DNA from: Saccostrea echinata
Taxonomy: Eukaryota
Length of the DNA stretch: 64,000 bases
Assembly: GCF_033153115.1 (NCBI RefSeq)
Contig: NW_026889803.1
Coordinates: forward strand, 27,962,001 to 28,026,000
Direction of reading: 5' to 3'
Positions within the stretch are counted from its first letter, which is position 1. Every line of letters begins with the position of its first letter. The position numbers were made by a program, and so were the translations under genes. Positions 10,653-14,809 of this stretch are shown in pieces. The notes under the pieces were generated by a model. It was not told the origin of the DNA. It saw only the letters and a program-made list of their open reading frames with translations, and did not search any database.

Positions 10653-11911
10653 ATTAATTCAATTTTTTCCAAATTTTCTCAATACACACTTCAGTCTAGA
10701 TTACATCTTTCAAGTTCTGTTCATTTCAGTCCAACCAATAATCCAATTACTTTTCTCATAATGGTCACACAGTGTTAAATAGTTTTACATACTGAAATAC
10801 AAATCTCAAAAAATCTATTTAGAAGTAAATACAATATCAGCATCAGAAAAAAATTAAGGTGAAATTTAAACAATTTAGAAAATTTTAGGCATCTGCTGCA
10901 TGTAGTAGGTTGCTAGGGAAAATATAGAAAGCTACTTTTCGTAAAAATTTACAACAAATGGGAATGCTGAAGGTAGATACACTGATTAACAATTTATGCA
11001 AATCCACACATAATATTTTATGTACATGTACATATTAAGATTTCTGATCATATTTAAGCAACACAAAAAAAAAAACAAACAAACTTGGAACCAAGTTCCC
11101 ATGTTAAAAATCTTATGAATTACTATTCTTTTAAACTCTGAAAGGATAAACAAGTTGTCGTGCTTAGCACTGATTTCTCCTCTGAAAGCACCACTTTAGT
11201 GAAGGTGAAACAACCTCTTTAAATGTATAAGTTAATATGCTATAGAGCAATGTGTTAATTAAAAGGTACAGTTTAGATGTCAGTTTGTATAAGTAATTTC
11301 TCTGAATGGACAATATAATTATGTGTGGTTAAAAAACTGTTAAACCTATGGTGCAAATTAACAAAAAGGATAAATATCATTTTGGAATAAGCAAAGTTCT
11401 AGAAACTGCTGTAGTGACCTTATAAATGGTTAAACTCTAGGGCTGGGATGATACAAGTAAAATGTGAAACAATACATCCTGGTACAATGACTGCAAATTC
11501 TGCTACATTCTGCACATTAAAATACTTTTTAGTTCAGTAATTCAACTTTACACTGATAAAAGCTTAGATTTTTTTTTCAATACTACCAAGTAATTTCCTA
11601 GAAAAAAAGAGAAAATAAAGTCTTTGATATTTTTTTTACGAGAGGAAAAATATTTGTTCAGGACTTTTTGTCTTTGGATTAAAAGAATTAATTTAACATA
11701 ACTTATGTATTGACTTGGCTATACATGTAATTTTTGATATACATTCAAAATATAGGAACAGATATATACTACAAGCAGTAGATGCATGGATCATAGAAGT
11801 CTGTCTTCCCATATCATTCCAGCCCTAATAAACACAAGGCTTCGCACTCTGCATATAAAAAAAAAATCAACACCACACTGACGCACACCAAACAATGTAT
11901 CCTCCCATACA

Positions 11912-14809
11912 TTAACTCCAACCACTCTGATGGCTGTTTCCTCCCCAGTTGGGATATCCGCCTGCGGATGTGTTGGTGTCAGCTGTCCCCCAGCCTGCAG
12001 AGTTCTGAGTACTAAAGAACCCTGTTTGCTGGGTCTGTCTGGCAGTTGTGGTTTGAACACCAAAAGGATCCCCATGACCTTGACCCACTGGCTGTGGTTG
12101 GGGTGCTGGTAACTGACCTTGACTTTGTAACATAGCCTGGGCTGCTGCTAGCACAGCTGAATTCAATAAATTCATGCCTATGCTATTAGCCATGTTTGGG
12201 TCAGGAACAGGTGGAACTGTACCTACAGTAGCAATTGGTTTACCTTGCTGGCTCCACCCCCCATGTCCCCCTCCCCTCCCACTTCCTCCATGATCAAATC
12301 TGCCCCTGTTATCATTTCTGTCTGCATTTTTGGGAGCCGCTGTGGTGACATGAACACTTGCACCCTTGATAATATGGTCTTCCCCACAAAGAGATCGAGC
12401 AACCCTGTGATCTGCAAAAGTAACAAAAGCAAATGCTCGGAAGGGTTTGGGAATGAAAACATCGGACACTTCCCCATATTTGCAAAAGTAACTTTTTAGG
12501 TCATCAGCTGTTATGTCTTCAGTGCATCTTGCTACAAAAACTTTTCTGCTAACCATTTCTGCAGCACCTTCCTGTATGAAAGGAAAAAACCAAGAATGAA
12601 TTATCATTATTATGCATTATATAATAATATATACAGTTGTACATGTAATAAAATGAATTAATAAATTTTCATTTGAATTTTTACTTTCACAATGCATACT
12701 TATAAAACTGTATCTATGAGCAATCAAAGTAAAACATTGTCTTTGGACTTTGCAAAATGCCAATACTAGGAATGGTATAATGATATGTCAAATGATATCT
12801 TTTAATTTTTGATGTTTTTATTGTTTAAAGACTGAGAAACGGATCTCTAAATTTGATTAATTTGTATAAAACAAATTATTCCACTGAAAATACTTGCATT
12901 TGAATTTGGAATAGCTACATCACACCATCTTCCATCAATCATGTGTCTTTGTGCCAAAACCTTTACTTGTGAATCATACTCTAAAAATCGAATAAAGCCA
13001 AACCCTTTTGATGCTCCTGTTTTCACATCTCTCTTCACCTAAAAAAAAATAAGCAATTACACAAAATGTACTTTTTATGATAAAACTTCATCATAATTAC
13101 ACTAAATCTTAATAAAACCCAAAATATCTGAGGTAGAACATTTTTTTTCAAGAACATTAATAACATTTTTTTAATTGAGCTCATTGCTCAAAGAGCAATA
13201 GCTGACATTTTTTTTTAATCATTCATATGATTTTGTAATAAATTAACTTACTTGTACAAGAAGCAGTTCTCCAAATGAAGAGAAGTATCTGCGCAGATCA
13301 TCTTCATTACTTTTCCAAGGTAAGCCAAGAACAATGAGATCACTGCATCTTTGTTTATCAACACATTTATTCTTTGCCACTGAATTTTCACCAGCCTCAT
13401 CTCCTTTGCGTTTTATCATCACATTATCTGCAAGTTGATATGTTATACAAGTTCATTCAAGAAGTAACTGTGTGGTCACAGATTCTTTATAAATCCCCAA
13501 AACTTTTAGAACTTTGTCAATGAGTACAAAGTCTCTCAAAGGAGACGCAATCAGGGTTCAACATTAACTCTTGTCTGCTTGTCCGGCACCAGTGAAAAAA
13601 ATTTACGGACAAGTGAATATTGCTGGGCACCTGTCCGATTGGACAAGTGCTTTTTTATGAAGCCTCTAAATAATAAAAGGAACAACTGGTGAAAAGTTTA
13701 ACAATAGGTAATAAAGACTGAAGCAGTACATAAAAGCCAAACTTTAATCCCAATATTAATCACTATGTAATTGAGTTCACACTCGATCGGGATTGAAGTT
13801 CACTAATTGCATACCACTGCAAAGGCATGGATCTTACCAAGTTTGGATTCTGTTTGATGTTGACAGTTTCATTTGTGAGCATTTATGTTGCTGTCAGGAC
13901 AGAAAGTCTAAATAAAATTTTGTCTTATGTGTTTGTCATATGTATCAATAAAATCACAAATCCCTCAAGCGTGCATAAAATGGACTTTATTTTAAGTAAT
14001 AGTTTTCAAGTTGACAGAATTATTTATTGAAAAATATCAAGTGAGGTTGAAGTTCGGACAAGTAAATGTCTTGGTCACTTGTCCAAATGGACAAGTATGA
14101 AAAAAAGTTAATGTAGAGCCCTGGCAATTTGATGAATGATTTTCTCATGCATTCAGAGTTCAAAGCTGAAAACTTTCAGTGCACCAAAATGTGATTTTTT
14201 TTTAACATGCTGAAAAAAATGCACATTTAAGAAAAAAGTCAAATGATAACGATAAAAAAAATGCATGGTTAAGAAAAATGTAAAATGATAACGATAAATA
14301 AAAATAATGATAACTAATTCAAGCTATTTAGCTAAATCAAGAAATTGTGCCGGACCTATTCAAGCTGTCTTGTAAGAGTTACAATCTTTACATCCTTTTT
14401 TTTAAACTGCAACCAACATGTTAAGAACTTCATGAGATGTCACTTCTGTGTATGTATATACAGAAAAAAAATGTAATTTGTTGCTGGATATCATCTCTTG
14501 CATGACTCACTGATTGAATAAGGAACAAATATAAAAATGCCAATATAAATTACTCCTTGTTCAATACAAACCTTTGGGGAATACAACAATGTAAACAAAA
14601 TTTCCCCAAACTCCATCTGGTGGATGCAGTCTTCCCTCTGATAGTCTAATTCCACGAAAATTTCCAGTGCTTGGATTTCTGTATTTCATTCCACATGCCC
14701 CCGGAAACTGTGCGGCGAGTGTGCTGAGCAACAACGAACCGTCATCCTCACTAGGAATTTCTATCGGCTCGTCACCCTCTTCGTCACTAACCTGGATATA
14801 CTGTGCCAT
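11912..14809 (-). CDS. TARDBP: TAR DNA-binding protein 43 (TDP-43): NTD, bipartite NLS, RRM1, RRM2, Gly/Gln-rich low-complexity C-terminus; 404 aa
   Basis: Exons 14809-14572, 13427-13252, 13038-12898 (GC donor) and 12571-11912. Motifs: [83 protein letters not shown]. The 238-nt and 141-nt exons match the human coding exon lengths as I recall them. Confidence 0.98.
13552..14123. mobile_element. MITE with CAGGG termini and 5-bp TSD (hAT5-like), in TARDBP intron 1
   Basis: TIR cagggttcaacattaac / gttaatgtagagccctg; TSD gcaat at 13547-13551 and 14124-14128; subterminal cttgtcc/ggacaag repeats. Confidence 0.85.

What the first reader, a model, noticed from the sequence alone, without database searches (positions are those of the whole stretch)
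11814..12244. Cryptic intron across the TARDBP stop codon that would yield a short, LCD-less TDP-43 isoform
Seen: a strong 3' splice site (T10-ATATGCAG|, exon from 11848) lies about 62 nt after the stop codon, directly preceded by a UG-rich tract (uuguuuggugugcgucagugugguguug). A donor-like CAAG|GTAAAC sits at 12244, shortly after RRM2 and the Gly stretch. Joining them removes the conserved helix and Gln-rich tail and gives a 305-aa protein ending ECEALCLLGLE*, a Leu-rich, NES-like tail. Established: human TARDBP uses alternative introns in its last exon and 3'UTR for autoregulation and to make short cytoplasmic sTDP-43 isoforms. Inference: the same logic may operate in a mollusc. A second acceptor candidate lies at about 11598.
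Basis: partly seen in the sequence, partly recalled or inferred. Interest (0 to 1): 0.7.

Follow-up and report, generated by a model that had tools for sequence, protein, structure and literature searches.

The report
Conserved UG box behind oyster TARDBP
Just behind the stop codon of an oyster TDP-43 gene lies a short UG-rich element, kept in a more distant oyster, that likely lets the protein bind and control its own mRNA; the short, export-tagged protein proposed for it was not seen in RNA assemblies, and its predicted tail is cut by a stop codon in most alleles sampled.

Summary
The sequence features are real. The gene is an oyster TARDBP (404 aa, four coding exons, three introns confirmed in RNA contigs), and joining 12244 to 11848 would give 305 aa. 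The proposed Leu-rich export tail fails: a change at 11843 makes its third codon a stop in the genome's second copy and in 4 of 5 close-kin RNA runs. No junction inside the last exon or 3'UTR appeared in 8 runs (6 cover the site). Those are contigs, which drop rare forms, so a rare splice is not excluded. What survives is a 3'UTR element: UG tract, branch-like TTGAT, T-run and CAG. The UG tract is unusual (5 such places in 128 kb), and a more distant oyster keeps the element while the next 570 nt diverge. It is likely a TDP-43 self-binding site over a silent or rarely used acceptor. Tail-less TDP-43 isoforms already stand in database gene models of abalone, limpet, Aplysia and an oyster paralog; abalone's break at the matching Gly-Lys. 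The scan holds no earlier TARDBP note, only a similar one on MYEF2. New member of a known kind; splice unproven.

The parts
14572..14809 (-). TARDBP coding exon 1 (N-terminal domain); contigs reach upstream to about 14887
13252..13427 (-). coding exon 2 (linker, start of RRM1)
12898..13038 (-). coding exon 3 (rest of RRM1)
12572..12897 (-). intron 3, GC-AG, 326 nt
   Evidence: joint in 4 of 4 runs
11912..12571 (-). coding part of the last exon: RRM2, Gly stretch, conserved helix, Gln/Gly/Ser tail, stop
12238..12247 (-). candidate internal donor AAG|GTAAAC at the Gly-Lys dipeptide (last exon base 12244, phase 1); use not shown
   Evidence: contig unbroken across it in X20
12112..12120 (-). second candidate donor AAG|GTCAGT after the helix (last exon base 12118, phase 1); use not shown
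11867..11897 (-). UG-rich tract (8 TG in 30 nt), likely TDP-43 binding site; ends in branch-point-like TTGAT (A at 11867)
11849..11866 (-). T-run and CAG: acceptor-like site (T10-AT in the window, T7-ACT in the other alleles)
11804..11848 (-). conserved sequence behind the AG; stop/Glu polymorphism at 11843 in the frame of both candidate donors
11598..11621 (-). second acceptor-like site (exon from 11597); outside the blocks matched by distant oyster runs
10978..11235 (-). distal conserved 3'UTR block, U/UG-rich, with TGTACATA at 11026-11019
   Evidence: X20, X17, X6

Best explanation
The stretch 11897-11804 is a conserved element at the start of the TARDBP 3'UTR that likely serves as a binding site for TDP-43 on its own mRNA, while the acceptor inside it is unused in the RNA assemblies examined. 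Shown: the gene, the unspliced path through the predicted intron, the UG enrichment, the conservation in a second oyster, the intact RNA-binding motifs. Inferred: TDP-43 (this protein or one of its two oyster paralogs) binds the UG tract; because the tract abuts the branch-like TTGAT and the T-run, binding would keep the acceptor shut and act on the mRNA through stability or poly(A) choice, so that full-length protein is what the gene makes in bulk tissue. Any spliced product would be rare and would end two residues after the junction in most animals, so its tail cannot carry a function.
For: Predicted intron 12243-11849 lies inside one contig running on past 11848 in X1-X5; X20 contig unbroken from 12571 to 12015 at depth 457; no joint in the last exon or UTR in 8 runs. 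Stop allele in the C30 copy and X2-X5. UG tract among 5 places in 128 kb. X20 differs at 35 of 557 coding letters, matches from the stop to 11804 and not in 11236-11803; the 30 letters around the AG differ from the C30 allele at 2 places. RNP motifs align with human TDP-43. Human autoregulation starts with TDP-43 binding UG-rich 3'UTR sequence (PMC12987623 section 6); binding close to a splice site represses it (PMC13343711 passage). Named bivalve models of the ortholog are 397-448 aa, bar one C-terminal fragment.
Against: Binding was not tested; U/UG-rich blocks also bind CELF, ELAV or TIA proteins (own knowledge). One UG is lost by a T>A change at 11872 in X2, X3, X5. The most conserved part is centred on the AG, which fits a used acceptor as well. 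Conservation rests on one run of one other oyster; the two paralogs show no such tract behind their stops (for one, read by eye for the other), and none of the 17 metagenome loci scored has tract plus acceptor. One fly study found no evidence of TBPH autoregulation on overexpression (PMC3605831 passage).
Confidence: 0.45

Rival explanations
1. The acceptor is used in a regulated way (neurons, stress, a change in TDP-43 level) from 12244 or 12118 and makes a TDP-43 without its low-complexity tail, as in vertebrates; only the truncation matters (296 aa in the common allele).
For: Branch-like TTGAT, T-run and CAG kept in all alleles and in X20. Gly-Lys 22-32 residues before the helix in 27 of 33 A-type mollusc proteins and 0 of 6 B-type; all 6 short Haliotis models leave the full-length sequence at that Gly codon. 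Short models also in Patella, Lottia, Aplysia, Bulinus, Babylonia and the oyster C paralog. Human sTDP43 can be 100- to 1000-fold rarer than full length, which contigs would miss.
Against: No joint in 8 runs. No such model among listed named bivalve orthologs, though the same databases hold them for gastropods and the paralog (28 of 68 members of the oyster cluster unread). Donor at chance level; Gly-Lys-Pro may be a protein motif (Ala-Lys-Pro or Pro-Lys-Pro in clams). The spliced RNA has no evident later junction, so it would be stable and visible if made (inference). TTGAT-like words precede 73 of 313 acceptor-like sites.
Confidence: 0.27
2. The block is a 3'UTR site for other RNA-binding proteins (U- and UG-binders controlling stability or translation); the AG is kept only because it lies inside the block.
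For: At about 90% block identity both letters of an AG survive most of the time (arithmetic). Six acceptor-like sites lie in the 1.3-kb UTR. A second conserved U/UG-rich block with a Pumilio-type word lies at 10978-11235; its acceptor-like AG at 11138 is changed in X20, X17 and X6.
Against: A top-0.02% UG window directly behind the stop of the gene for the main UG-binding protein is unlikely to be coincidence.
Confidence: 0.23
3. One reading: a 305-aa isoform exported by a Leu-rich ECEALCLLGLE tail.
For: The frame is open in the window's allele and in X1; in X20 it reads on for at least seven codons, with Tyr at the third.
Against: Stop at the third codon in the C30 copy and 4 of 5 close-kin runs. 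Only three of the four hydrophobic positions of the export consensus (consensus recalled). The human tail itself shows little likeness to Leu-rich XPO1 signals and rodent sTDP43 is mostly nuclear (PMC12987623 passages).
Confidence: 0.03

Closest known systems
Human TARDBP high-splicing-density region: TDPBR, introns 6/7, sTDP43 (PMC12987623 sections 5, 6; 10.1101/648477 passages)
   Same: RRM2-to-stop in one last exon; donor-like site before the conserved helix; acceptor-like site and UG-rich sequence in the proximal 3'UTR.
   Different: No junction seen; no conserved tail; no conserved downstream intron to give NMD or a poly(A) switch; the UG tract lies on the acceptor's branch region, where binding would repress rather than promote splicing (inferred).
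Zebrafish tardbpl / tardbpl-FL switch (PMC3658164 passages)
   Same: Paralogous TDP-43 genes; a coding intron-like stretch whose retention gives the full-length protein; UG motifs near the sites.
   Different: There the short form is an established, detected product and the switch is shown by mutants; here only the retained form is seen.
Gastropod and oyster-paralog short TDP-43 gene models (Haliotis, Patella, Lottia, Aplysia X3/X4, Babylonia X3; Crassostrea virginica and Magallana gigas C paralog)
   Same: Loss of helix and tail by leaving the last exon at a Gly codon; in Haliotis at the Gly-Lys matching 12244.
   Different: Their tails are unrelated to the oyster tail and some are conserved across species; they are database models whose DNA and read support I could not see.
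CFTR exon 9 acceptor, TDP-43-repressed (named in PMC13343711; the TG-T-AG layout is recalled)
   Same: UG repeats directly before a short, length-polymorphic T-run and AG.
   Different: Here the site is in the 3'UTR of TDP-43's own gene and the UGs are interrupted.

Membership tests
TARDBP/TDP-43 gene | N-terminal domain, two RRMs, conserved helix, low-complexity tail | tested here: met
   E 5e-124 over 1-403 to human TDP-43; Pfam PF18694, PF00076 on the cluster
sTDP43-type last-exon splicing | Internal donor in the last exon before the helix | tested here: inconclusive
   7 of 9 consensus, chance level; position matches Haliotis break; DNA of the site in other species not displayed
sTDP43-type last-exon splicing | Conserved acceptor in the 3'UTR | tested here: met
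   kept in all alleles and in X20; one other oyster only
sTDP43-type last-exon splicing | Junction present in RNA | tested here: inconclusive
   0 joints in 8 runs, 6 covering the site, 3 studies; contigs cannot show absence
sTDP43-type last-exon splicing | Conserved novel C-terminal tail that sets localisation | tested here: not met
   Glu, stop or Tyr at the third codon
sTDP43-type last-exon splicing | Downstream intron that makes the short RNA an NMD target or switches poly(A) site | tested here: inconclusive
   acceptor 11597 not in a conserved block, no UTR donor among the best-scoring sites, no joint
TDPBR-type autoregulatory 3'UTR site | UG-rich, conserved 3'UTR sequence | tested here: met
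TDPBR-type autoregulatory 3'UTR site | TDP-43 binds it and mRNA output falls as TDP-43 rises | not testable with these tools
   needs CLIP or reporter

The most novel reading that the evidence does not exclude
Oyster TDP-43 holds a cryptic intron in its own gene shut by sitting on its branch point; when TDP-43 falls or leaves the nucleus the intron is spliced from the Gly-Lys donor, removing the tail and the sensor at once. That would be a self-targeted cryptic splice of opposite polarity to the human loop, on a donor shared with abalone and so older than the bivalve-gastropod split.
Probability: 0.15. Interest if true: 0.65.

Novelty: new member of a known kind. Interest (0 to 1): 0.3.

Why it matters
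TARDBP autoregulation and short isoforms are described for vertebrates; conservation of sTDP43 is reported for mammals (10.1101/648477 passages). My paper searches listed no study of molluscan TDP-43 splicing. A conserved self-binding site in oysters, with tail-less models across gastropods, would show that the control logic is old or arose repeatedly, and gives a small testable element. As it stands it extends a known mechanism; the eye-catching part, an export tail, is wrong.

Tried and rejected
Rfam scan of 10200-12300: 0 matches at E up to 1. Folding: proximal block z 0.55, distal halves z -1.61 and 0.03, so no structured RNA. Repeat origin: the own-genome DNA search gave only the second copy and a paralog exon. 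C30 as a separate gene: collinear at 86-99% over the whole window, so likely a retained haplotype. Contig starts at 11849 in X20 as a hidden junction: two 60-nt contigs share both ends and their depths (about 247 together) do not exceed the upstream 264, so an allele bubble. Contig breaks at 12244-12339 in X1-X5: ends differ run to run, G-rich stretch, no evidence either way. Depth falls behind the stop in X20 and near 11580 in X2: not interpretable from contigs. Metagenome scan: 33 loci, none a close oyster ortholog (best segment 30-77%); one row (L048) was read in the wrong frame and is dropped. Tails of the Crassostrea C-paralog short forms not found in 30 kb around G000's copy, whose matching Gly codon is GGA. 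A downstream alternative last exon in window 1-9600: none evident by eye. An exact look-up of the spliced protein in the protein collection was left out, so its presence among unread cluster members is open. Two papers were not held; no supplements were read, and those of 10.1101/648477 (conservation tables) were closed.

Full report
Gene. The minus strand carries a TARDBP gene with coding exons 14809-14572, 13427-13252, 13038-12898 and 12571-11912, giving 404 aa. All three introns appear as joints in 4 of 4 runs; the third is GC-AG. The protein aligns with human TDP-43 over its length, RNP motifs included, and matches Saccostrea database proteins. G000 holds a second copy on C30, collinear over the whole window and likely the other haplotype, and two paralogs. 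A tree of 43 proteins (first 300 residues) groups the window's gene with mussel, ark-shell and scallop orthologs (100/97); deeper forks are open.

Observation. Every feature named is at its coordinate, and the join gives 305 aa. With simple scores of my own (consensus and U1 pairing recalled, thresholds set after seeing the site), the UG tract is rare (8 TG in 30 nt, 5 places in 128 kb), the acceptor moderately so (0.44 per kb; 2.5 per kb for the T7 allele; six acceptor-like sites in the UTR), the donor ordinary (2.4 per kb). It is still the best GT between RRM2 and the helix; a better one lies behind the helix at 12118. A branch-like TTGAT has its A 19 nt before the exon, but 73 of 313 acceptor-like sites have such a word.

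RNA. The search listed 23 runs; I laid 8, all as contigs, RNA by guess. Five are close kin (X1, X3, X4, X5 one sample record; X2 another study), three more distant. No joint falls in the last exon or UTR. In X1-X5 one contig holds the whole predicted intron and runs on past 11848, but none bridges the donor from upstream, because all break in the G-rich stretch 12244-12339. X20 bridges the donor unbroken at depth 457. X17 and X6 do not cover the site. One search left 11 loose ends and 36 pieces unshown, one and four. Contigs drop rare forms, and human sTDP43 can be 100- to 1000-fold rarer than full length (PMC12987623 section 6), so this shows that the unspliced form dominates, not that the splice never happens. 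The UTR reaches at least 10575.

The tail. At 11843 the C30 copy and X2, X3, X4, X5 have T on the minus strand, making the third codon of the new exon TAA; only the window and X1 have the Glu codon. The product would be 296 aa ending EC. X20 has a Tyr codon there. A residue that is Glu, stop or Tyr is not part of a working export signal. The human tail is itself unlike Leu-rich XPO1 signals. The other two frames stay open in both G000 alleles (7 and 19 residues), but both good donors are phase 1.

Conservation. X20 (organism C; 35 differences in 557 coding letters, so likely another oyster genus, inferred) matches from the stop to 11804 and again at 10978-11235, and not between. Its contig over 11859-11980 has 11 differences; 7 are placed, none in 11860-11889, 4 are unplaced. 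The 30 letters around the AG differ from the C30 allele at 2 places. So the element is constrained, and the T7 form is shared while the window's T10 is the variant. Against strict constraint, 11872 varies among close kin. The acceptor at 11597 is outside the matched blocks. None of the 17 metagenome TDP-43 loci scored (of 33 fetched; none a close ortholog) has tract plus acceptor, though one has an equally UG-rich window behind its stop.

Other molluscs. Named bivalve models of this ortholog are 397-448 aa, bar a 118-aa C-terminal fragment: oyster cluster 40 of 68 members read and 15 listed, C-termini checked by alignment; scallop 6 of 6, mussel 8 of 8, Mercenaria 4 of 4, Mya 3 of 3, mostly by length. 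In contrast, tail-less models exist for three Haliotis species, Patella, Lottia, Aplysia, Bulinus and Babylonia, and for the C paralog of two oysters with near-identical 13-residue tails. The six short Haliotis models leave at the Gly of a Gly-Lys 30 residues before the helix core; the oyster donor is at a Gly-Lys 32 residues before it, and 27 of 33 A-type proteins have this dipeptide.

Mechanism. Shown: full-length mRNA with a conserved UG/T/AG element behind the stop. Inferred: TDP-43 binds it, as human TDP-43 binds UG-rich 3'UTR sequence to start autoregulation. Binding close to a splice site represses it (PMC13343711 passage), and here the tract touches the branch region, so the acceptor would stay shut while TDP-43 is present, and control would run through stability or poly(A) choice (0.45). 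A regulated rare splice giving a merely truncated protein is the main rival (0.27), other RNA-binding proteins next (0.23), the export-tail isoform last (0.03).

Papers seen: PMC12987623 (sections 5 and 6, passages), 10.1101/648477, PMC13343711, PMC3658164, PMC3605831, PMC10530927, PMC6292132 (passages only); others as search listings. Searches listed nothing on molluscan TDP-43 splicing; the library lacks most subscription papers. The scan's own notes hold no TARDBP finding, only a similar, unchecked one on MYEF2.

Verdict. Observation confirmed; interpretation partly supported; not to be filed as sTDP43, since the tail test failed and the junction is unseen, though it may work like the TDPBR. 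New member of a known kind; interest 0.3.

Noticed in passing
window 12572-12897 (-): Intron 3 is GC-AG in 4 of 4 runs. Saccostrea database isoform X1 instead uses a GT 4 nt later and an AG 4 nt later (ASA for EGA); no contig showed it, so a minor form or a model forced to GT-AG. The B paralog has GT here.
   Followed up: partly
window 10978-11235 (-): Second conserved 3'UTR block in three distant oyster runs, with a perfect short hairpin, a U/UG run and a Pumilio-type word TGTACATA at 11026 (motif recalled); no Rfam match.
   Followed up: partly
G000:C30:35.21-35.27 Mb (L004-L011): Collinear copy of the whole window at 86-99% identity, likely an unpurged haplotype; databases list a second gene with the same protein.
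   Followed up: partly
L013 982-1767 and L048 1513-2163: Two further TARDBP paralogs in G000. The C paralog has a tail-less model in two Crassostrea/Magallana species, but G000's copy lacks the GT at the matching codon.
   Followed up: partly
proteins P0327-P0334, P0340, P0341, P0025, P0152: Gastropod TDP-43 models with alternative Tyr/Gly-rich last exons, one tail conserved in three Haliotis species: a better place than this locus to study molluscan short TDP-43.
   Followed up: partly
window 10380-10680 (-): Degenerate tandem repeat (by eye) in the distal 3'UTR; contigs of three runs end near 10575; the only ATTAAA/AATAAA between 11911 and 9500 is at 10340.
   Followed up: no
window 1-3100 (+): Exons of a convergent gene, by eye; repeats lie between it and TARDBP.
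   Followed up: no
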